From: a plasmid | Sequence record: NZ_CP088228.1 | DNA length: 64,000 nt | Strand: one strand, 5' to 3' | Shown: piece by piece, positions 3,501 through 20,558 of the stretch | Position numbering within the stretch: position 1 is the stretch's first letter | How the letters are laid out: each line of letters starts with the position of its first letter | The notes under the pieces: model-generated | Database searches by the model: none | What the model was told of the DNA's origin: nothing | What the model saw: only the letters and a program-made list of their open reading frames with translations | Made by a program: the position numbers and the translations under genes

Positions 3501-3673
3501 GTTTCGTGCCAGCTGCCCACTTCCAGATTCCAATGTTCGGCTGGCATTCTCTCAATCCTGTAACCCTCTGTCCTGCATTGTCCTCTTCAGGACAAAAAAA
3601 ACGGCAGGGTGACATCTTATCCCTGCCGTCAAAACTAATCGCTTAATTTTTCGGCGATTATAATGTATTGTTT

Positions 3674-3689: not shown

Positions 3690-3743
3690 TTTTTATTTAA
3701 TGTGAAATTTTCCCTTCGCTTTATATCTCCCGTAAGAAATTAC

Positions 3744-3930
3744 CCGCCGTGCCTTCACGCTAACCCGGCCGCTGCGGTCGCAAGGGTTCACGTTGTCTCC
3801 GTCCTCACCCGTTCGCGCCCTGCACGGTGCATTCAGCCCGTGAAGGGCTTGCGCTGCGGCTTCGGCGTCGCCCTGGCGTCCTCCGCTTTACGCCGTGTTT
3901 TTGTGGCGGCACGGCGCAAGAGGGTGCCGG
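3744..3930 (+). repeat. GC-rich ~190-bp leading-region repeat, family B copy 1 (ssi/Frpo-like candidate)
   Basis: Near-identical copies at 4728-4916 and 6470-6652; conserved 10-bp stem/10-nt loop (cacggtgcattcagcccgtg core) plus complementary termini; ends about 18 bp before ORF 3948. Confidence 0.7.
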
Positions 3931-3947
3931 ATGCTGAGGACACAACC

Positions 3948-4415
3948 ATGTTCAGACTGACCTGTATTGAACTCGATAACGGCGAGTTTGCCGTCTATAT
4001 CAATCACCATTACCTGGGGAGTGAAGATGCCAGCGGAGAGCGACTTTCTCTGGGGGAGGTTCTGGAGCAGCTCTCCCTGCTGCCGGGCGTGGAATTACAG
4101 ACCCTGCTGGAACCCGTACCGGAGTGCGATGACTGGTGCTGGAACGACATCGCCGATCGCGTCCTGCCGTCGCGTCCTGCATGTCGTGATGATGTGACGG
4201 TGGCAGGGCTCATCGCCAGGCTGAAGCAGTACCCACCGGATGCACTGTGTATGGGGACGTTCTGGCTGGAAGATGATTTTCTGTCGCTTGATGACAGTCT
4301 GTCGGAGGAAGAAATTGCAGAAGCCATGCGTATCTGCGACCACAGCCACGATGCAGGCATCGGTTTTAACTGGGACACGCTGCAGTTCGCTATCGACCAC
4401 GTGAAGGGGCGCTGA
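3948..4415 (+). CDS. Hypothetical acidic protein (155 aa) downstream of repeat B1
   Basis: ORF with ATG at 3948 (MFRLTCIELDNGEF...); about 21 percent Asp+Glu. Confidence 0.55.
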   Translation: MFRLTCIELDNGEFAVYINHHYLGSEDASGERLSLGEVLEQLSLLPGVELQTLLEPVPECDDWCWNDIADRVLPSRPACRDDVTVAGLIARLKQYPPDALCMGTFWLEDDFLSLDDSLSEEEIAEAMRICDHSHDAGIGFNWDTLQFAIDHVKGR

Positions 4416-4727
4416 AAAAAAGGACACCATCCGGGGAGGGGGTGTCCTGAAGCCATGCAATTCGTTACAGGTGAAAACCCTTAAGATGTTTTCGGCACTG
4501 ATAATCACATAATCACTTCGCACTTTCACCTGCCATATATCCGACTCAAAAAAAAGACGTCTCCGGTTGGGGACGTCCTGAAATCAAAGGCACACATGTC
4601 AGATAATGGCGCGAATCCATTATCAGTGTGCATTCTGCCATACACTCACGGACTCATCAGCTACCAGAACCGGTACCGAAGGATGTCGGTTCCCTCCGCC
4701 TTATTGCCGCCAGCCGGCGGCGTGTTC

Positions 4728-4916
4728 TACGCCGTGCCTTCACGCTAACCCGGCCGCTGTGGTCGCAAGGGTTCACGTTGTCTCCGTCCTCACCCGTTCG
4801 CACCTTTCACGGTGCATTCAGCCCGTGAAAGGCTTGCGCTGCGGCTTGCGGCGTCGCCCCTGCGCCCTCCGCTTTTCGCCGGGTTTTTGTGGCGGCACGG
4901 CGCAACAGGGTGCCGC
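4728..4916 (+). repeat. Family B repeat copy 2
   Basis: Aligns with 3744-3930 and 6470-6652; precedes methyltransferase gene. Confidence 0.7.
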
Positions 4917-4937
4917 ATATCAGAGAGGAGTGTGTCT

Positions 4938-5630
4938 ATGTCCCGTTTTATTCTGGGTGACTGCGTGCAGGTGATGTCCCGTTTTCCGGCGCGTGCCGTC
5001 GATTTTATTCTTACCGATCCACCGTACCTGGTTGGCTATAAGGACCGTACCGGCCGCACCCTGGCCGGGGACAACTCTGCCGAATGGCTCCAGCCCGCCT
5101 GTCATGAAATGTACCGCGTGCTGAAAAATGACAGCCTGATGGTGAGTTTCTATGCCTGGAACCGCGCGGATCTGTTTCTGAATGCGTGGAAAACGGCCGG
5201 TTTCCGGGTGGTTGGCCATATCGTCTTTGCCAAGAGCTACGCCTCAAAATCGACGTTCGTGGGTTACACCCATGAGAGCGCCTACCTGCTGGCGAAGGGA
5301 AGGCCGCAAACCCCGGACCGTCCCATCCCGGACGTGATCCCCTGGAAATACACGGGCAACCGACACCATCCGACGGAGAAGCCGGTGCAGAGCCTGCGGC
5401 CGCTGATTGAATCGCTCACGCGTCCGGGGGCTATTGTCCTTGACCCGTTCGCCGGAAGCGGCTCCACCTGCGTGGCCGCCGCCGAAGCCAGCCGCCGCTA
5501 TATCGGGATCGAGATGCTTGAGCAGTACCACGCCGCCGGCGTTCGACGTCTGGCACAGGTTGAACGGGCAAGAAGGATGCCGGCGGCCAATGACGGCGCG
5601 TTTTACCCCGACTATCCGGAGGCGGCATGA
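4938..5630 (+). CDS. Orphan beta-class N6-adenine (or N4-C) DNA methyltransferase
   Basis: 230 aa; motif IV DPPY (ILTDPPYLVGYKD) precedes motif I FAGSGST, the beta-class order; no adjacent endonuclease. Confidence 0.8.
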   Translation: MSRFILGDCVQVMSRFPARAVDFILTDPPYLVGYKDRTGRTLAGDNSAEWLQPACHEMYRVLKNDSLMVSFYAWNRADLFLNAWKTAGFRVVGHIVFAKSYASKSTFVGYTHESAYLLAKGRPQTPDRPIPDVIPWKYTGNRHHPTEKPVQSLRPLIESLTRPGAIVLDPFAGSGSTCVAAAEASRRYIGIEMLEQYHAAGVRRLAQVERARRMPAANDGAFYPDYPEAA

Positions 5631-5848
5631 ACTACCCGGGCCTTGAAAACCTGCGCGCGGACGTGGCCGCGCTCAGCAATGCCATGTGTGACGTGCGGAT
5701 GCTGCTGAACCGCCTCGAATCGCAGCACCGGCACGACGCGGCAACGCTTACCGAACGTATGGCTGCGCAGACTCTGCGCCGGATCAACACCCTGCTTCTT
5801 GAAGCCTACCGCGAAGCCCTGGTGCTGGACGAAACCTTTCAGGACTGA
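5627..5848 (+). CDS. Small hypothetical protein (73 aa) translationally coupled to methyltransferase
   Basis: ATGA overlap with MTase stop. Confidence 0.45.
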   Translation: MNYPGLENLRADVAALSNAMCDVRMLLNRLESQHRHDAATLTERMAAQTLRRINTLLLEAYREALVLDETFQD

Positions 5849-5903
5849 CTGACCCTGCCGGGCTGATGCCCGGTCTGTAACCCCTTACAAGAGAGAACAA
5901 ACG

Positions 5904-6326
5904 ATGTACGGAACCCGCGAAGAACTTTGTGTACAGCTTGAAAACATGTTCACGTCTGACGAACCCCTGGTCCTGCTGGTCTGGACGGAAGAGGGGATTA
6001 GCGTGGCCTGCCGTGAAGCCCAGCCAGAACCGGACGGGACTGAAATCCGGAATCTGATGAAGGCGATCGGCGAAATGAAAATGACGCAATACCGCCAGGA
6101 GGGGGTAAATAATCTGACTGTCAGCGATCTCCTGGCCCGTCAGCGGGAAGTGGCAAACCGTCAGGTGAGTGTTCCGGCGGTACTCCTGTCCCGCGTCCTG
6201 CGTAACTATGAATGCGAGCTGGAAAACCGGATCGGTATGGCCTGGGAAGCCGGGCGGCAGGAGCCTGAATCCGTCAGGAATGAGCTGAAGGACGTTCACG
6301 CATTACAGGAGACGCTGGCCGCGTAA
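5904..6326 (+). CDS. Hypothetical acidic protein (140 aa)
   Basis: ORF with RBS-like spacing; Glu-rich. Confidence 0.5.
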   Translation: MYGTREELCVQLENMFTSDEPLVLLVWTEEGISVACREAQPEPDGTEIRNLMKAIGEMKMTQYRQEGVNNLTVSDLLARQREVANRQVSVPAVLLSRVLRNYECELENRIGMAWEAGRQEPESVRNELKDVHALQETLAA

Positions 6327-6469
6327 GGGAGAGAGCCGGGGTAACGCCCCGGCAACCGGTGGCCATCCACTGCGAAAAGGATGTCAGTGCCTTCCGCTTT
6401 TATCCGCCGCTGCCCTCCGGGCCACGTCGGGACAATGAAACTCCCCTGAAGCTCCGTGCGGTGACGGCA

Positions 6470-6652
6470 TGCGCCGTGACTTCACTGTAGCCCGGCCGCA
6501 TCGGCCACAAGGGTTCGCTTACGCCTCCGTCCTCACCCGTTCGCACCCTTCACGGTGCATTCAGCCCGTGAAGGCTTTGCGCTGCGGCTTGCGGCGTCGC
6601 CCCTGTGTCCTCCGCTTTTCGCCGGTCTGTCGTGTCGTCACGGCGATGCCGG
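6470..6652 (+). repeat. Family B repeat copy 3
   Basis: Aligns with copies 1 and 2; precedes klcA. Confidence 0.7.
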
Positions 6653-6682
6653 AACCGAGAATATGTTAACCGTGGAGGATCT

Positions 6683-7111
6683 ATGAACCAGACCGTGACC
6701 TGTGATGCTGTTCGTCTTGAGGGTGCGCAGCGCCTGACTTTCCTGCCTGATTTGTTTGGCGGCGATTTTATGACGTCCGAGGCATCCGTGTACGCCTATG
6801 CCCAGCGTTACTGCCCTGAGTATCAGGGGGGATTCTGGCAGTTTTACCGGCTGCCGGAAGGTGGCGGATATATGGCGCCTGACGTGGAGAGCCTGACCCT
6901 GTGCAAACCGGACAACTGGTTTGAGCAGACTGTCAGCGGGGAAGTGGCGGGGATCATTCTCACGGCGCTGGTACTGAATCACCGGAGCTGGCACCACAGC
7001 AACCATGACCATGAAGAGCTGTGCCGCCACTTCTGCCGCCGTTATGAGCAGCTTATGGCATTTGCTGATACCCATCCGGAAAGCGCCACGATCTGGCGTG
7101 CCCTTGACTGA
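6683..7111 (+). CDS. klcA: KlcA/ArdB-family antirestriction protein
   Basis: 142 aa; matches KlcA pattern RL.FLP..FG...M..EA.VYA......YCP.Y.GG.W.FY.L..GG.YMAPD. Confidence 0.8.
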   Translation: MNQTVTCDAVRLEGAQRLTFLPDLFGGDFMTSEASVYAYAQRYCPEYQGGFWQFYRLPEGGGYMAPDVESLTLCKPDNWFEQTVSGEVAGIILTALVLNHRSWHHSNHDHEELCRHFCRRYEQLMAFADTHPESATIWRALD

Positions 7112-7153
7112 CTGACCACGGGCGGCGATGCCGCCCGACTAAAGGAGAAAAAC

Positions 7154-7564
7154 ATGATTGGTACAGCAAAAGAGATCGCCATCGAAATGCTGCGTGATGA
7201 CGATAATGACGGCGAGAAATTTGTATTCGCCAGCTGGAGCCGGAACGATATTCGCGGTCTCTGCATTGACTGGGATCTCAGTGATGAAGAGATCGACGTG
7301 GTGATGGAAAGACTGGAGGCAGAGCTGTATCCCTCCGGATGTGTCCCTCTCATCTACAACATTGTTGAGATGATGGTGGAAGAAAAACGGAAACACCGTA
7401 ATGTCACCATTCCGGCTGCGGCGCTTGCGGTGGTGATGCAGCTTGCAGGGAAGGAAATGGAGCGTATCGCTGTATGCGCGGAGGATGGAGGCGGATCAGC
7501 GGCAGAAACCCTGAAAGAAGAAAATGACGTCATGTTGAGCCTGCGCGCGGCGCTCGATGCCTGA
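7154..7564 (+). CDS. Hypothetical highly acidic protein (136 aa)
   Basis: ORF 43 bp after klcA; about 27 percent Asp+Glu (DDDNDGEKF..., DLSDEEIDVVMERLEAEL). Confidence 0.5.
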   Translation: MIGTAKEIAIEMLRDDDNDGEKFVFASWSRNDIRGLCIDWDLSDEEIDVVMERLEAELYPSGCVPLIYNIVEMMVEEKRKHRNVTIPAAALAVVMQLAGKEMERIAVCAEDGGGSAAETLKEENDVMLSLRAALDA

Positions 7565-8025: not shown

Positions 8026-8073
8026 CTCTGAAACCCGATCAGCAAATCCTCTGAAAACTCCTGAATCCCACTT

Positions 8074-8548
8074 CTGGCCCCCTTCGGCTCCCGGCCCGCG
8101 TGGCGGTCCGGTCGTCGAGCCCCACTCCGCCAGGTCGGCTGCTGACGCACCCGCCGGGCTCCGCCGAACCCGCAAGCGGTTTCGGGCTGACGCTAGGGTC
8201 TGATGGCTGAGGTCAACCCCCTGGCTTGCACCGGCCGGAGGCCGGGCCGCCCTGACCGCGCCGGCGGAGCCGTCGCTTTAAGGCCGCCACGCCGTTCCGA
8301 CGTGTCGGGTGCGTGCATCCTGTTCATCCGGTGAGGCCATCCCCCGTGCGTCCTCACGCGGAGGGCTGCTTGTAGCACCGTCGTGTCGTCATCCGAAGGG
8401 TGAAATGCACGCCGCCAAAACTTTTTGCGTGCCGCAAAAAGTTTTGTCTGCGCCCTTCTCCTGCCGCCCCGCCGTTGCTCCTTTTGCCCTTTGCCGCGAG
8501 AGAACTCACCAGGGAGATGGCCAGCCATCACCACAGGAGAAAACCAGG
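8074..8548 (+). repeat. GC-rich ~0.5-kb leading-region repeat, family A copy 1 (ssi/Frpo-like candidate)
   Basis: Highly similar copies at 13980-14517 and 17288-17827; each ends in caccacaggagaaaaccaggATG; similarity continues ~45 nt into the downstream ORF. Confidence 0.7.
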
Positions 8549-8821
8549 ATGCACACACGAAACGTCAACGTCAAAACCGCCGCTCAAGAATCTTCCAGGA
8601 AGATGGGGGAAGAACAAAACCCTGTTTCTGTCGCACGGGAGTGGGTGGCTCAGGCCACTTCGCTGAAGGCGGGGGTCACCGTCACCCTGTCCGATGCGTC
8701 CCGATACGGCGACGTGCAGGTGGAGATCCGCACCAACGGAACGCTTAACTGGCGCGCCTGGTCGTTTGAACCGGATTTTCTTTTTGAACTGAAACGCAAT
8801 CTGCAATACGTGCAGCTTTAA
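8549..8821 (+). CDS. Hypothetical protein (90 aa) with repeat-encoded N-terminus MHTRNVNVKTAAQES
   Basis: ATG at 8549 preceded by RBS aggagaa; first 15 codons shared with ORFs at 14518 and 17828. Confidence 0.55.
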   Translation: MHTRNVNVKTAAQESSRKMGEEQNPVSVAREWVAQATSLKAGVTVTLSDASRYGDVQVEIRTNGTLNWRAWSFEPDFLFELKRNLQYVQL

Positions 8822-13260: not shown

Positions 13261-13389
13261 GCAGCATAAAGCGTGGATATACCTGGTAAGAAAGAGCACC
13301 TGCCCGGTATAATCGACGTGGCGCTTGAGGCTTTTTGCCTCATGACGTGAAGGTGGTTTGTTGCCGTGTTGTGTGGCAGAAAGCAGAAA

Positions 13390-13455
13390 GCCCCGTAGTT
13401 AATTTTCATTAACCCACGAGGCCCCCTGTATGTCTCAACAACAACAGTATGGCCT
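13390..13455 (-). ncRNA. sok: Putative Sok-like antisense RNA
   Basis: Inferred from hok/sok family organisation (antisense to hok leader at mok start); not independently visible. Confidence 0.3.
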
Positions 13456-13645
13456 CTTACCGTGCTTAATGCAAGGAGGAGTAAACCATGAAACTGCCGC
13501 GAAACGCCCTTATCTGGTGCGTATTAATCGTGTGTATAACGCTCTTAATATTCACATGCCTGACCCGGAACCGCTTATGCGAACTCCGGCTAAAGGACGG
13601 GGACAGGGAGGTCGCGGCAAGCCTGGCTTACGAATCCAACGGTAA
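13430..13645 (+). CDS. mok: Mok-like overlapping reading frame
   Basis: 71-aa ORF overlapping hok in another frame, as in hok/mok/sok loci. Confidence 0.4.
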
Positions 13646-13754: not shown

Positions 13755-13979
13755 CATCCCGAAGGGTGCAGTCGCATGCATGAACAACCCGGAAGGTCTG
13801 TTCCCCTGCGGGGAACGGGGGAAGGGGGACGCGCCTTCGGCGCTGCCCCTCTGCTCCCTCCGCCTTGCCCTCTCTCCTGCCTGATTTTGCTGAAGTCAGC
13901 GCGCCATGAGTTACCTGCCTGTCTCTGGCTTCGGCCTGGTTTTCCCTGTGCTCTTCATCCCGGGCGTTATATCCGGCGT

Positions 13980-14517
13980 CCTGCTGGTTAACTTTCTCAG
14001 CTGCAGCTCAGTGGCCATAACCCAAAAAACGGGCAGGGCGATGGCCCCCTTCGGCTCCCGGCCAGCGCTGCTGTCCGGTCGTCGAGCCCCACTCCGCCAG
14101 GGCGGCCGCTGCGCACCCGCCGGGCTCCGCCGAACCCGCAAGCGGTTTCGGGCTGACGCTAGGGTCTGATGGCGAAGGTCAGGGGCTGCGGCTTCTCCGG
14201 CCGTGCCGTCCGGAACGCCTTCACCGCGCCGGCTGATGCCGTCGCTTTAATGGCGCCACGCCGTTCCGACGTGTCGGGTGTGTGCATCCTGTTCCCCCGG
14301 TGAAGCCATCCCCCGTGCGTCCTCACGCGGAGGGCTGCTTGTAGCACCGTCGTGTCGTCATCCGAAGGGTGAAATGCACTCCGCCAAAACTTTTTGCGTG
14401 CCGCAAAAACTTTCGTCTGCGCCCTTCTTCTGCCGCCCCGCCGTTGCTCCTTTTGCCCTTTGCCGCGAGAGAACTCACCAGGGAGATGGACAACCATCAC
14501 CACAGGAGAAAACCAGG
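13980..14517 (+). repeat. Family A repeat copy 2
   Basis: Aligns with 8074-8548 and 17288-17827. Confidence 0.7.
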
Positions 14518-14832
14518 ATGTACACACAAAACGTCAACGTCAAAACCGCCGCTCAGGAATCTTCCAGGAAGATAGGGGGAAAAACCGTGTCGTACACGTT
14601 CCTCGTCGCTGAGCAGAAAAAAAACTCAGCGGAGGAACCGGACGTTCTGGAGTTCAGCAGCCTGGCTGAGCTGAAGAAACTGCGCAGAAACTGCCCCGAA
14701 ACGATGCGCTGCACCTATTTCTACGCCCTCAGCAGCGGCGTCGATAAACAGTTCCGCCATATCCATGTGGCTGAAGCAGACCACTTCAAACAGTTTGTGC
14801 GCCTGATCGAGCGCGCAGGTATCGACATTTAA
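14518..14832 (+). CDS. Hypothetical protein (104 aa) with repeat-encoded N-terminus MYTQNVNVKTAAQES
   Basis: ATG 14518 after aggagaaaaccagg; diverges from 8549 ORF after about codon 17. Confidence 0.55.
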   Translation: MYTQNVNVKTAAQESSRKIGGKTVSYTFLVAEQKKNSAEEPDVLEFSSLAELKKLRRNCPETMRCTYFYALSSGVDKQFRHIHVAEADHFKQFVRLIERAGIDI

Positions 14833-17138: not shown

Positions 17139-17287
17139 TCGGGAGTCTGTGCCCTGATGGATACCATCAGGGCAACCGCAAAAAAACGCATCCCCTTCGG
17201 GGAAACGGGGAGGGCGAAAGCGCCTCCGGCGCTCCTGCCGTTCCCCGTTGCTGTGCTTCACTCCTTACCTGCGAGCATAGCCAGCAT

Positions 17288-17827
17288 CCTGCTGGTTAAC
17301 TTTCTCTGCTGCAGCTCAGTGGCCATAACCTGAAAACAGGGCAGGGTGATGGCCCCCTTCGGCTCCCGGCCAGCGCTGCTGTCCGGTCGTCGAGCCCCAC
17401 TCCGCCAGGGCGGCCGCTGCGCACCCGCCAGGCTCCGCCGAACCCCTTCGGGTTTCGGGCCATACGGCTAGGGTCTGATGGCGAAGGTCAAAGGCTGCGG
17501 CTTCTCCGGCCGTGCCGTCCGGAACGCCTTCACCGCGCCGGCTGATGCCGTCGCTTTAAGGCCGCCACGCCGTTCCGACGTGTCGGGTGTGTGCATCCTG
17601 TTCCCCCGGTGAAGCCATCCCCCGTGTGTCCTCACGCGGAGGGCTGCTTGTAGCACCGTCGGGTCGTCATCCAAGGGGTGAAATGCACTCCGCCAAAACT
17701 TTTTGCGTGCCGCAAAAACTTTAGTCTCCGCCCCTTTCCTTCCGCCCTTCGCCGTTGCTCCTTTGCCCTTTGCCGCGAGAGAACTCACCAGGGAGATGGA
17801 CAACCATCACCACAGGAGAAAACCAGG
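17288..17827 (+). repeat. Family A repeat copy 3
   Basis: Aligns with copies 1 and 2. Confidence 0.7.
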
Positions 17828-18121
17828 ATGCACACACGAAACGTCAACGTCAAAACCGCCGCTCAAGAATCTACCGGAAGATGTGATTCAAACCTCACCA
17901 TGTCCCAGTTCACGGATCTGTTTTGCTGGGTCCTGGCCGCATCGGAAGGGGAGCCACAACCGGCAATTTTTACGCCGCCAGAGAATGCCACTGAGCTGAC
18001 GTTAATAAATGACGAATGCCCGGATTATATCTCTGTCTGGTTTGTAGATGGTCGCCCGGTGGCAGCTGCAATGCCGCTGGATAATTTTCATCGCGTTATT
18101 TCTTCATCTCTTACTAAATAA
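17828..18121 (+). CDS. Hypothetical protein (97 aa) with repeat-encoded N-terminus MHTRNVNVKTAAQES
   Basis: ATG 17828; identical first 15 aa to ORF 8549, then unrelated sequence. Confidence 0.55.
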   Translation: MHTRNVNVKTAAQESTGRCDSNLTMSQFTDLFCWVLAASEGEPQPAIFTPPENATELTLINDECPDYISVWFVDGRPVAAAMPLDNFHRVISSSLTK

Positions 18122-18987: not shown

Positions 18988-19527
18988 TTACTGTTCGTTG
19001 TTAAGCGATGCTGTTTCAGTAGTTTTTATCTCATGCTCCTTACCCGCAACTGGCGCCAGGCGTTCAGAAAGTAACTTTTTTCTGGCCAACAAAACGCGAT
19101 ATATATTTTTGATATCCTGAGCATACGCCTTGCGCTGCACAATCAGCTTTTTGCTCGGCCCAGTATTATACATCCCCACGCTGTCCCAGTTTTTTCCGTA
19201 TGACCTGAAGTTGTGCGCCAGTACCCATGCACCCGTATAAACGCAGATACATGGATCATTCAGCAGGCGCTCACGGGTAATATTGAAGTTTTTAAGTTTA
19301 CCGTAATGAGAGCTGTTTACCTGCATCCCACAGACATCTTCTGTTCCATTCCTGTTAGATCCATTTATCGCACCCGGCTTAAGTCTGCTCTCTTTAATCG
19401 AAATTGACATAAGCAGCAGTGGATCAATTTGATAATCTTTCCCGGCCTGATCAAAGCACATTTGTGGAGCTGCGCCAGCAGACATGGAAAGGGTCAGCAA
19501 TGCCGCAGGTAGTATCGATATTTTCAT
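18988..19527 (-). CDS. Lytic transglycosylase (F geneX/orf169, R1 gene 19 homologue)
   Basis: 179 aa with signal peptide and SLT catalytic segment KESRLKPGAIN...GMQVNSSH; collinear with F Orf169. Confidence 0.8.
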   Translation of the reverse strand: MKISILPAALLTLSMSAGAAPQMCFDQAGKDYQIDPLLLMSISIKESRLKPGAINGSNRNGTEDVCGMQVNSSHYGKLKNFNITRERLLNDPCICVYTGAWVLAHNFRSYGKNWDSVGMYNTGPSKKLIVQRKAYAQDIKNIYRVLLARKKLLSERLAPVAGKEHEIKTTETASLNNEQ

Positions 19528-19639: not shown

Positions 19640-20110
19640 AAGGGATTTAACACCTGTCCGAAATAAACATGCCAGAACGGTAGACGGTATTAACATGCCG
19701 CTCTTTACTAACCCTTTTAAACATCACACCCCACGCAAGACTTCGTCTTGCAGATTTTTTCTTTTAATTCATATATATACCTGTGCTTATTATGCGGAAT
19801 TATGCTGTGTGAACGATAAAGGTGTGTGCATCAGCACACATTGCAGTGCCTGAACCCCACACACTACAGTGCCTAATCAAGCACTGTAGTGTGTGCTAAT
19901 CCAGCACTGCTGAGTGTGGGGATTGTGTGTATTCAATAAATAGAGTAACTTAAAAATGGGTAGTGCCTGATGAACACACATCACAGTGCCTGATGCACAC
20001 ACATGGTGGTGCCTGATGCACACACATGACAGTGCCGGATTAGCACACATCCAAAAGCCAGATTCACGCAAATCCTCAGTAAGTTACAGAACAACGTAAC
20101 TCCGGGAACT
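19640..20110. other. oriT: F-type origin of transfer (oriT) with nick site and TraM-binding repeats
   Basis: Minus strand reads gcaagacgaagtcttgcGTGGGGTGT|GATG, matching F gcaaaaacttgtttttgcGTGGGGTGT|GGTG (nick between + positions 19726/19727); downstream direct/inverted repeats cacacaYNRYRGTGCC x6 (19840-20045) resemble sbm TraM sites. Confidence 0.75.
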
Positions 20111-20171: not shown

Positions 20172-20558
20172 ATGCCAAGAAAGAACATCTACTTTAAAGA
20201 TAAAATTGACAGAGAAATAAATGATATTCTTGAGATTGAGTTACAAAAGGGCGCAACAACGTCTGACATGAACTATTCTTCAATAGTCAACGAATTAGTT
20301 CGACTCGGACTGATGGTATACAAATCAAAGGAAGAGGGCTCAACTTTCGATCTCGATGGTTTCCGACGCGACCTCATTAAGAAAGTCTCTGGCTCACGTG
20401 AAGGTATTATGATTCTCACCGCACTTGTCTCTGATATCTTTGTCACGATGAAGGGGCCAGACTCTGGAGTGAAGCTTGAAGAACTGATAAATGCCAACAT
20501 CAGCTCGATTAACGATGCAGAAGATAAGGCTGAAAAAGACCACTTCCTGACGGATTAA
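20172..20558 (+). CDS. traM: TraM, oriT-binding relaxosome accessory protein
   Basis: 128 aa; N-terminal RHH-like MPRKNIYFKDKIDREINDILE and C-terminal tetramerisation-like region, position next to oriT. Confidence 0.8.
   Translation: MPRKNIYFKDKIDREINDILEIELQKGATTSDMNYSSIVNELVRLGLMVYKSKEEGSTFDLDGFRRDLIKKVSGSREGIMILTALVSDIFVTMKGPDSGVKLEELINANISSINDAEDKAEKDHFLTD

What the first reader, a model, noticed from the sequence alone, without database searches (positions are those of the whole stretch)
3744..6652. Three copies of a ~190-bp structured GC-rich element each placed just upstream of a leading-region gene (acidic ORF, orphan methyltransferase, klcA)
- Placement: copies at 3744-3930, 4728-4916 and 6470-6652 each end 18-30 bp before a plus-strand gene.
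- Conserved hairpin: all share a 10-bp stem with a 10-nt loop (cacggtgcattcagcccgtg core). The stem shows compensatory differences between copies (ccctgcacgg/ccgtgaaggg vs cctttcacgg/ccgtgaaagg).
- Termini: the ends are mutually complementary (cgccgtgcc ... ggcacggcg), so a long imperfect hairpin can form in single-stranded DNA.
- Entry order: the oriT nick (19726/19727, minus strand) means the minus strand enters recipients first, leading region ahead, and serves as template for these plus-strand genes.
- Interpretation: this is the architecture of single-strand promoters (Frpo in F, ssi elements in ColIb-P9) that drive burst expression of anti-restriction and SOS-inhibition genes before second-strand synthesis.
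- Consequence: two of the three downstream genes are known anti-restriction types. The third, ORF 3948-4415, therefore becomes a candidate early establishment or anti-defence gene.
Basis: partly seen in the sequence, partly recalled or inferred. Interest (0 to 1): 0.75.

Follow-up and report, generated by a model that had tools for sequence, protein, structure and literature searches.

The report
Single-strand DNA promoters before anti-restriction genes

Summary
Three 83-93% identical copies (hairpin cores 3745-3916, 4730-4902, 6472-6645) each end about 30 nt before a plus-strand gene: an orphan 155-aa ORF, an N6/N4 methyltransferase, and klcA/ardB.

They show no detectable similarity to classic Frpo/ssi (class 1). 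A profile built only from this subtype hits the pESBL/F promoters ssp2 (E ~1e-17) and ssp3 (E ~1e-12). Wen et al. 2025 published those as separate classes 2 and 3, with 5'-RACE start sites. Samuel et al. 2024 listed the same subtype as low-certainty "Frpo* 1/3".

Across 29 copies from 14 plasmids:
- The hairpin covaries: 26 of 51 pairs show compensatory changes.
- It is more stable on the transferred (minus) strand in 29 of 29 copies.
- Its 3' arm carries TTGnnn-15-TAnn(G/A)T, with A-11 to -9 in a conserved bubble.

Inferred mechanism: the distal arm supplies the non-template promoter strand. Transcription would start at the hairpin base (A3911, A4897, A6640) and run into the gene. Second-strand synthesis would erase the promoter.

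It is a new member of a known kind. Modest additions are the link between ssp2 and ssp3, a conserved hairpin at the predicted 5' end, and an uncharacterised early-gene candidate.

The parts
3745..3916 (-). Copy A hairpin on the transferred strand (covariance-model match 3737-3923). Basal stem 3745-3753 pairs with 3908-3916. Apical stem-loop 3818-3847. -35 TTGCGA at 3783-3778. -10 TAGCGT at 3762-3757.
   Evidence: DNA fold -46.0 kcal/mol. A-11 to -9 have unpaired probability 0.9-1.0.
4730..4902 (-). Copy B hairpin (model match 4722-4909). Basal stem 4730-4738 pairs with 4894-4902. Apical stem-loop 4803-4832. -35 TTGCGA at 4768-4763. -10 TAGCGT at 4747-4742.
   Evidence: (z = -3.55). DNA fold -53.8 kcal/mol.
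6472..6645 (-). Copy C hairpin (model match 6464-6652). Basal stem 6472-6480 pairs with 6637-6645. Apical stem-loop 6546-6574. -35 TTGTGG at 6510-6505. -10 TACAGT at 6489-6484.
   Evidence: (z = -3.96). DNA fold -57.3 kcal/mol.
3911..3947 (+). Predicted leader of transcript A. Inferred +1 at A3911. Small stem-loop at 3912-3929. Shine-Dalgarno GAGGA at 3936-3940.
   Evidence: The start site is inferred from the -10 position and has not been measured.
4897..4937 (+). Predicted leader of transcript B. Inferred +1 at A4897. Small stem-loop at 4898-4915.
6640..6682 (+). Predicted leader of transcript C. Inferred +1 at A6640. Small stem-loop at 6641-6651.
3948..4415 (+). Orphan 155-aa ORF downstream of copy A. 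Its function is unknown.
4938..6326 (+). Operon downstream of copy B: N6/N4 DNA methyltransferase 4938-5630, 73-aa ORF 5627-5848, DUF1380 protein 5904-6326.
6683..7564 (+). Operon downstream of copy C: klcA/ardB-type antirestriction gene 6683-7111, then a 136-aa ORF at 7154-7564 that its relative annotates as DUF1380 family.
19722..19736 (-). oriT nick-region motif gcgtggggtgt|gatg. It makes the minus strand the transferred strand, with lower coordinates entering first.
   Evidence: Flanking SLT (18988-19527, minus strand), DUF932 and traM (20172-20558) match the F arrangement.

Best explanation
Each copy is a single-strand-DNA promoter of the ssp2/ssp3 superfamily (classes 2 and 3 of Wen et al. 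2025).

Proposed mechanism:
1. During conjugation the minus strand enters the recipient, leading region first, and each element folds into a ~175-nt imperfect hairpin.
2. The 3' arm of the hairpin carries TTGnnn, a 15-nt spacer and TAnn(G/A)T. It plays the non-template promoter strand for host sigma-70 RNA polymerase. The -35 is base-paired. The -10 sits over a conserved 3-nt mismatch bubble with A-11 unpaired.
3. The 5' arm is the template.
4. Transcription starts in the 9-11-bp basal stem (about A3911, A4897 and A6640) and runs out of the hairpin base. The resulting mRNAs have 37-43-nt leaders that begin with a small stem-loop and carry a strong Shine-Dalgarno sequence.
5. These mRNAs encode the orphan ORF, the methyltransferase operon and the klcA operon.
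6. Once the complementary strand is made, the template arm faces GTTTTTGTGGCGGCACGG, which has no -10. The promoter disappears and expression stops.

What is shown and what is inferred:
- Shown here: homology, structure, strand bias, motif conservation and placement.
- Taken from the literature: ssDNA-dependent transcription of the homologues.
- Inferred: which arm is the template, the exact start site, and activity of this particular subtype.
For: Homology:
- A sequence profile built only from window-type copies hits, in F and pESBL, exactly the five elements upstream of the klcA, ardA and DUF1281-methylase operons. E-values are 3.5e-17 to 1.1e-12, all full length and on the T strand.
- The covariance model gives the ssp2 copies, which were not in its seed, 78-80 bits.
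- Wen 2025 reports 5'-RACE start sites and up to ~500-fold induction of leading-region genes. Fraikin 2026 reports ssp2 deletion and replacement by ssp3.

Structure, across 29 copies:
- 93.7% of cells are paired, against 34-37% when partners are slid.
- 26 of 51 pairs have double changes.
- 0 of 500 shuffles reach the observed covariation score.

Strand: the T strand is more stable than the plus strand in 29 of 29 copies, by 7.0 kcal/mol on average.

Promoter motif:
- TTG is present in 28 of 29 copies and TAnn(G/A)T in 29 of 29. The spacer is 15 nt in 27 copies and 16 in 2.
- -35 is paired. T-12 is paired. A-11 has unpaired probability 1.0 in 27 of 29 copies.

Placement:
- The conserved A lies 37-49 nt before an annotated start codon in all 27 copies that have one, always in the same orientation.
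- No conventional plus-strand sigma-70 site lies directly upstream of the three genes.
Against: - No experiment exists for this compact Enterobacter subtype.
- The hexamers match the sigma-70 consensus only modestly (6-7 of 12), and a 15-nt spacer is short. A simple hexamer scan does not single this site out in every copy.
- I could not see Wen et al.'s Supplementary Fig. S3, so the mapped +1 of ssp2 and ssp3 was not compared with my prediction.
- My identification of their 'class 3' hairpin with L003 3271-3446 rests on its being the only intergenic region upstream of that operon.
- In class-1 Frpo a conserved TTGACG lies on the other (5') arm near the base. That could mean the opposite geometry is used there.
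- Copy A alone folds no better than shuffled sequence (z = -0.34).
- The covariation alignment was fitted to the model structure, which biases the pair counts upward.
Confidence: 0.82

Rival explanations
1. It is the same kind of ssDNA promoter with the opposite geometry. The -35 and -10 are read on the 5' arm from the base towards the apex, for example GTG(C/A)C(G/C)-15-G(A/T)AAAG. The 3' arm is the template. RNA polymerase transcribes up the stem, round the loop and back out, giving a ~200-nt structured leader.
For: - The long stem would supply a normal downstream duplex for polymerase.
- In class-1 Frpo the conserved TTGACG lies on the 5' arm near the base.
- A GTGACC-15-GATAAG combination scores as well as the 3'-arm site in one copy.
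- G(A/T)AAAG sits in a predicted internal loop.
Against: - The 5'-arm hexamers are not conserved. G(A/T)AAAG is replaced by GACCGC in ssp3 (which is active experimentally), CCCGAG in the Serratia myotis copy, TCTGAG in L014 copy b and AGGGAG in pMT1 copy b.
- It lacks T-12 and T-7.
- The 3'-arm TA..(G/A)T is invariant in 29 of 29 copies although largely unpaired.
- The small covarying stem-loop starts 1-3 nt after the +1 predicted by the other geometry.
Confidence: 0.13
2. The elements act mainly as replication elements on the incoming strand and contribute little transcription. They would be priming sites or structural roadblocks that time complementary-strand synthesis, as shown for F ssp2.
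For: - Fraikin 2026 shows that ssp2 stalls conversion until UvrD melts it.
- Class-1 transcripts prime DNA synthesis.
- All three copies are stable G+C-rich hairpins.
Against: - The window copies fold at -46 to -57 kcal/mol, like ssp3 (-50). Ssp3 is reported to have no roadblock activity. Ssp2 folds at -72 to -80.
- A pure roadblock would not need an invariant unpaired TA..GT, a fixed 37-49-nt distance to a start codon, or one copy per operon.
- The two roles are not exclusive.
Confidence: 0.04
3. It is an RNA-level leader structure, a double-strand regulatory region, or a selfish palindromic repeat (MITE/REP-like) with no role in single-strand transcription.
For: - It is a repeated, G+C-rich element with terminal inverted repeats, and long open frames run through it.
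Against: - The sense (plus) strand folds worse in 29 of 29 copies. A G.T wobble kept in 19 of 29 copies would be a C.A mismatch in the mRNA sense.
- There is no Rfam match.
- Orientation and distance to the start codon are fixed in every copy.
- It was found in plasmid leading regions, in 4142 of 72,556 plasmid records, and in none of 50,697 phage records.
- 1-nt indels and an apical module that is replaced by a much longer, unrelated insert are incompatible with coding.
Confidence: 0.01

Closest known systems
ssp3 / class 3 ssDNA promoter of pESBL and F (Wen et al. 2025, PMC12672017; named in Fraikin et al. 2026)
   Same: - Compact T-strand hairpin: 176 nt against 172-174 nt here, and -50 against -46 to -57 kcal/mol.
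- Same basal stem GCCGTGCC/GGCACGGC.
- Same TTGCAT-15-TAACGT layout and same middle motifs (AAGCCGCAGCG / GACCGGGTGAGGA).
- Lies 38 nt before the first gene of the methylase operon.
   Different: - The apical module is unrelated. Ssp3 lacks the CACGG..CTGAATG..CCGTG stem-loop.
- A-11 is predicted to be less open (unpaired probability 0.2).
- In F and pESBL it precedes DUF1281. Here copy B sits directly before the methylase and copy A before an orphan ORF.
ssp2 / class 2 ssDNA promoter upstream of klcA (yfgB/ardB) and ardA in pESBL and F
   Same: - Best profile hits (E ~1e-17).
- Same base module with TTGCAT-15-TAAGAT and the same -11 to -9 bubble.
- Precedes klcA, as copy C does.
   Different: - About 240 nt long, with a much longer apical insert that is unrelated in sequence, and -72 to -80 kcal/mol.
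- It is reported to be a UvrD-resolved replication roadblock. That property is untested here and, on stability, less likely.
'Frpo* 1' and 'Frpo* 3' low-certainty candidates from an insect-gut metagenome island (Samuel et al. 2024, Supplementary Table 2)
   Same: - Same compact subtype, with the apical GGGCTGAATGCCC / GGACTGAATGTCC stem-loop.
- 75-76% identity over 179-214 nt for Frpo* 1 and 72-74% over 128-160 nt for Frpo* 3, against all three window copies.
   Different: - They were listed as having only distant similarity to Frpo, with no experiment.
- They were not linked to what later became ssp2 and ssp3.
Frpo1/Frpo2 of F (ssp1a/b) and ssi1-3 of ColIb-P9, class 1 (Masai & Arai 1997; Couturier et al. 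2023, PMC9849209)
   Same: - Same logic: a T-strand hairpin that rebuilds a promoter, sits in the leading region, gives zygotic induction and is switched off by conversion to duplex DNA.
   Different: - No detectable sequence similarity.
- About 330 nt long.
- Different conserved boxes (TTGACG on the 5' arm).
- The window has its own class-1-like family elsewhere.

Membership tests
Class 1 ssDNA promoters (Frpo/ssp1, ssi1-3) | Sequence homology to the ~328-nt Frpo/ssi repeat | tested here: not met
   The profile HMM reports nothing at F Frpo1/2 (about L001 8270-8600 and 13800-14000) up to E = 10. The covariance model reports nothing there or at the window's D1 family up to E = 0.1.
Class 1 ssDNA promoters (Frpo/ssp1, ssi1-3) | Stable hairpin on the transferred strand, upstream of T-strand-templated leading genes | tested here: met
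   This feature is shared with all classes, so it does not decide class-1 membership.
ssp2/ssp3 superfamily (classes 2 and 3) | Sequence homology to experimentally mapped ssp2 and ssp3 | tested here: met
   nhmmer E: 3.5e-17 for F ssp2, 4.2e-18 and 4.5e-18 for pESBL ssp2, 1.1e-12 and 2.7e-13 for ssp3. The profile contained no F or pESBL sequence.
ssp2/ssp3 superfamily (classes 2 and 3) | Conserved, covarying hairpin that is specific to the T strand | tested here: met
   26 of 51 pairs have compensatory changes, and 0 of 500 shuffles reach the observed score. The T strand is more stable in 29 of 29 copies.
ssp2/ssp3 superfamily (classes 2 and 3) | Reconstituted -35 and -10 boxes in the stem | tested here: met
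   TTGnnn-15/16-TAnn(G/A)T in 28-29 of 29 copies. -35 is paired, and -11 to -9 are unpaired. Which boxes Wen et al. assigned could not be checked.
ssp2/ssp3 superfamily (classes 2 and 3) | Transcription start on ssDNA in transconjugants, silent in donors | not testable with these tools
   Reported for pESBL by 5' RACE and RNA-seq. No data exist for this plasmid.
ssp2 specifically | Extended ~240-nt hairpin (-72 to -80 kcal/mol) that acts as a UvrD-resolved replication roadblock | tested here: not met
   For the structure: the window matches are 187-189 nt (cores 172-174 nt) and fold at -46 to -57 kcal/mol, without the long apical insert. Roadblock activity itself cannot be tested here.
ssp3 specifically | Compact hairpin with the ssp3 apical module, upstream of the DUF1281-methylase operon | tested here: inconclusive
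   Size and energy match. The apical module differs. The downstream genes are only partly the same.

The most novel reading that the evidence does not exclude
The compact element seen here would be the link showing that the published 'class 2' and 'class 3' ssDNA promoters are one modular superfamily.
- A fixed basal module would do the promoter work. It comprises the basal stem, the bubble -10, the -35, and a leader hairpin that shares its 5' half with the basal stem.
- An exchangeable apical module would set hairpin stability, and so whether the element also stalls second-strand synthesis.
- The leader hairpin would then be functional. It could free or stabilise RNA made on a template that has no non-template strand.
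- ORF 3948-4415 would be a new early establishment or anti-defence protein.
Probability: 0.3. Interest if true: 0.55.

Novelty: new member of a known kind. Interest (0 to 1): 0.35.

Why it matters
Relatives of this element match 4142 of 72,556 plasmid records, mostly Klebsiella and Enterobacter conjugative plasmids of clinical origin. They sit directly in front of methylase, KlcA/ArdB and ArdA genes, which blunt restriction in a new host.

Three practical points follow:
- Recognising the family by profile rather than by BLAST to Frpo lets one mark early-expressed operons in any enterobacterial plasmid. It also flags unknown genes behind them, such as ORF 3948-4415, as establishment or anti-defence candidates.
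- It corrects gene calls that run into the hairpin.
- The shared base module with a variable apex gives a concrete design for testing what makes ssp2 a replication roadblock and ssp3 not.

Tried and rejected
- Rfam scan of 1-22000 at E <= 1: nothing at the elements.
- Direct BLAST of the copies against F: only weak collinear hits, E 6e-6 to 0.1. This was insufficient alone, so I moved to a covariance model and a profile HMM.
- Simple sigma-70 hexamer scoring of every copy: noisy. The conserved site is top-ranked in only some copies, so the argument rests on positional conservation instead.
- MAFFT alignment of the leader hairpin: out of register because loop lengths differ. I replaced it with per-sequence folds and shuffles.
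- Supplementary figures of Wen 2025 and of the NAR 2026 codon-usage paper, and the Bikard 2010 review: not held. The published +1, the published -35/-10 assignments and the Frpo geometry could therefore not be read.
- Phage collection: no match.
- Coding hypothesis for the element: rejected because of indels, the replaced apical module and compensatory substitutions.
Full report
**Observation**

The three repeats exist as described.
- The repeat finder returns them as families D2 and D5, at 3745-3932, 4730-4918 and 6472-6661.
- A three-way alignment has 84% mean column identity that collapses outside the element.
- BLAST gives 93% identity for A/B and 83-85% for C.
- The terminal inverted repeat, the apical 10-bp stem with a 10-nt loop, and the placement before plus-strand start codons at 3948, 4938 and 6683 are all in the sequence.
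- Pfam confirms the methyltransferase and the KlcA/ArdB-type antirestriction protein. It also confirms the DUF932 / SLT / TraM arrangement around oriT.
- The nick-region motif gcgtggggtgt|gatg is on the minus strand at 19736-19722. The minus strand is therefore the transferred strand, the low-coordinate side enters first, and the minus strand is the template for the plus-strand genes. F has the same gene order.
- The window is 99% identical to Enterobacter hormaechei and E. kobei IncF-like conjugative plasmids.

**What the literature already holds**

- Wen et al. 2025 (PMC12672017) profiled pESBL and F by RNA-seq after removing donors. They found six strongly induced leading-region operons and mapped their starts by 5' RACE. 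They sorted the upstream hairpins into class 1 (ssi1-3/Frpo), class 2 (before klcA and ardA) and class 3 (before the M.EcoGIX operon). They stated that classes 2 and 3 have no homology to class 1, and that class 3 differs from all the others.
- Fraikin et al. 2026 renamed these ssp1a/b, ssp2 and ssp3. They showed that ssp2 also stalls complementary-strand synthesis until UvrD melts it, whereas ssp3 has equal promoter strength and no roadblock activity.
- A codon-usage study found ssp2 independently.
- Samuel et al. 2024 had earlier listed candidate sequences.

**Homology**

- I fetched the F and pESBL leading regions and 11 further plasmid loci from Pantoea, Erwinia, Serratia, Yersinia pMT1, Citrobacter, Salmonella, Klebsiella and Enterobacter.
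- A covariance model built from seven compact copies found 29 full-length matches. All are on the strand equivalent to the window's minus strand. They include F ssp2 and both pESBL ssp2 copies at 78-80 bits, although these were not in the seed.
- To avoid circularity I built a sequence-only profile from ten compact copies, excluding F and pESBL. In those two plasmids it hit exactly five places: ssp2 at E 3.5e-17 to 4.2e-18 and ssp3 at E 1.1e-12 to 2.7e-13. It hit nothing at Frpo1/2.
- Direct ssp2-ssp3 BLAST is weak (E 3e-5 over 73 nt). The compact type seen here is therefore what ties the two published classes together.
- Samuel's 'Frpo* 1' and 'Frpo* 3' match the three window copies at 72-76% identity. 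Their 'Frpo' 4' is visibly ssp2-type, and the codon-usage study reports 86% identity between ssp2 and a Samuel insect-metagenome candidate.
- One caveat applies. I equate Wen's class 3 hairpin with L003 3271-3446 because it is the only intergenic region ahead of the DUF1281-hyp-M.EcoGIX operon.

**Structure**

- On the 29-copy alignment, 93.7% of cells form standard pairs, against 34-37% when partners are slid by 1-3 columns.
- 26 of 51 pairs show changes on both sides (142 cells).
- No shuffle out of 500 reaches the observed covariation score.
- The alignment was fitted to the model, which inflates pairing somewhat. The double changes are nevertheless plain in the rows.
- With DNA parameters the transferred strand is more stable than its complement in 29 of 29 copies, by 7.0 kcal/mol on average. 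This is what selection on the single-stranded T strand predicts, because G.T pairs become C.A on the other strand.
- Single-sequence z-scores are -3.6 and -4.0 for copies B and C but only -0.3 for A. Thermodynamics of one copy alone would not have been convincing.

**Anatomy and inferred mechanism**

- The 3' arm of the T-strand hairpin reads CCCTTGnnn-N15-TAnn(G/A)T-N3-4-GGCACGG.
- TTG is present in 28 of 29 copies and TA..(G/A)T in 29 of 29. The spacer is 15 nt in 27 copies and 16 in 2.
- In base-pair probability calculations the -35 is paired and T-12 is paired. A-11 to -9 are unpaired, and a second 2-nt mismatch lies at about -5/-4. An 11-bp basal stem follows.
- Strong conservation of unpaired bases at exactly the positions sigma-70 reads on the non-template strand is the main reason I assign the 3' arm as non-template and the 5' arm as template.
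- Transcription would then start about 7 nt past the -10, at the conserved A of GGCACGG (A3911, A4897, A6640), and leave through the hairpin base.
- That A lies 37-49 nt from the annotated start codon in all 27 copies with annotation, and a GGAGG-type ribosome site is present.
- In duplex form the strand opposite the template arm is GTTTTTGTGGCGGCACGG, which has no TAnnnT. No conventional plus-strand promoter is predicted directly upstream of the three genes. This explains switch-off on conversion.
- The alternative geometry has the promoter on the 5' arm and transcription through the hairpin. It is not excluded. Class-1 elements keep a TTGACG on that arm. The candidate 5'-arm boxes here are not conserved, however, and are missing in ssp3 itself. 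I put about two to one on the proposed geometry.

**A further conserved feature**

- The sequence beginning 1-3 nt after the predicted +1 forms a small stem-loop in all 24 copies examined, at -5 to -11.5 kcal/mol as RNA.
- Its stem changes are compensated: CGGCGC/GUGCCG, CGGCAC/GUGCCG, CGGCCU/AGGCCG, ACGGUGC/GCACCGU.
- The median shuffle fraction is 0.023. Mean energy is -9.5 kcal/mol, against -4.6 in control windows.
- Its 5' half is the same sequence as one arm of the basal stem. That arm is therefore under a double pairing constraint, which may explain why CCGTG/CACGG never varies.
- Its role is unknown. Possibilities are mRNA 5'-end protection, release of nascent RNA from a template that has no non-template strand, or an alternative DNA fold.

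**Which published class?**

- The base module is shared by all. The apex differs.
- Window copies, Pantoea, Erwinia, Serratia myotis and the insect metagenome carry a short covarying stem capped by CTGAATG.
- ssp3 has a different short apex.
- ssp2 and the Klebsiella, Salmonella and Yersinia types carry a much longer apical insert.
- Fold energies are -46, -54 and -57 kcal/mol here, -50 for ssp3 and -72 to -80 for ssp2.
- On that basis I expect ssp3-like behaviour, meaning a promoter without a strong roadblock. This is a prediction only.

**The orphan gene**

- ORF 3948-4415 (155 aa) has 63 homologues. Those that carry a source name are from Enterobacter, Citrobacter, Leclercia, Scandinavium or Escherichia, and all are labelled hypothetical.
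- It has no Pfam or NCBIfam match and no real similarity to DUF1281, which occupies the equivalent position in F, pESBL, Pantoea and Erwinia.
- Its candidacy as an early gene rests only on sitting 37 nt behind a family member. It is reasonable but unproven.
- Several database entries of 170-191 aa probably start too early, inside the hairpin, through the open frame 3702-4415.

**Verdict**

The family is ssp2/ssp3, not Frpo/ssi.
- This is a new member of a kind that was flagged in 2024 and demonstrated in 2025-2026, so novelty is limited.
- The modest additions are the statistical link between classes 2 and 3 through this compact type, the explicit bubble-promoter anatomy with strand-bias evidence, the leader hairpin, and one uncharacterised downstream gene.

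Noticed in passing
window ~8040-8600, ~13950-14560, ~17260-17870: A second, unrelated repeat family (D1/D3/D4/D6/D7) forms very stable T-strand hairpins: -160 kcal/mol over 541 nt, z = -8.2. It matches Samuel et al.'s Salmonella 'Frpo* 5' at 75-80% over ~400 nt, but F Frpo only over short stretches (34-43 nt). These are probably the window's class-1-like ssDNA promoters, which would give six candidate ssDNA promoters in all, as in pESBL.
   Followed up: partly
window 3912-3929, 4898-4915, 6641-6651, and the equivalent positions in all 24 copies examined: A small covarying stem-loop starts 1-3 nt after the predicted transcription start. It shares its 5' half with the basal stem of the main hairpin, so the two structures are mutually exclusive in ssDNA.
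   Followed up: partly
alignment A5 columns 66-77 and 200-216; e.g. window 3846-3862 and 3797-3812: The motifs AAGCCGCAGCG (5' arm) and GCGAACGGGTGAGGA (3' arm) are nearly invariant in all subtypes, including ssp2 and ssp3, although only partly paired. The apical loop CTGAATG is also conserved in the compact subtype while its stem covaries. Nothing explains this sequence-level conservation.
   Followed up: no
window 3594-3628, 4416-4450, 4549-4583: By eye, three hairpins are each preceded by an A-run on the plus strand. On the minus strand they would read as stem plus T-run terminators. They lie just 'behind' copies A and B. The scan missed them because its loop limit is 8. In duplex form the elements' -35/-10 point leftwards towards them. 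A strong minus-strand sigma-70 site (TTTACA-16-TATAAT, 3684-3657) also sits about 30 nt upstream of the first hairpin.
   Followed up: no
window 13319-13490: A sok antitoxin RNA (Rfam RF01794, 97.8 bits, E 2e-21) marks a hok/sok module between the class-1-like repeats. F has flm in the same position.
   Followed up: no
window 3702-4415; proteins P0004, P0007, P0009, P0014, P0023: An open frame runs from GTG 3702 through the whole hairpin into ORF 3948-4415. Database homologues of 170-191 aa probably use such upstream starts and are likely mis-called.
   Followed up: no
L005 13588-13675; L011 5820-6257; L008 (Y. pestis pMT1): Three observations in related loci:
- Erwinia has a partial match (model positions 47-145 only, no base module) ahead of a large DNA methylase.
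- The Klebsiella sp. LY plasmid has no detectable element before its DNA methylase.
- The non-mobilizable pMT1 still keeps two full copies, before its methylase and its ardA.
   Followed up: no
This rests on analogy with the F nick, recalled from my own knowledge.
   Followed up: partly
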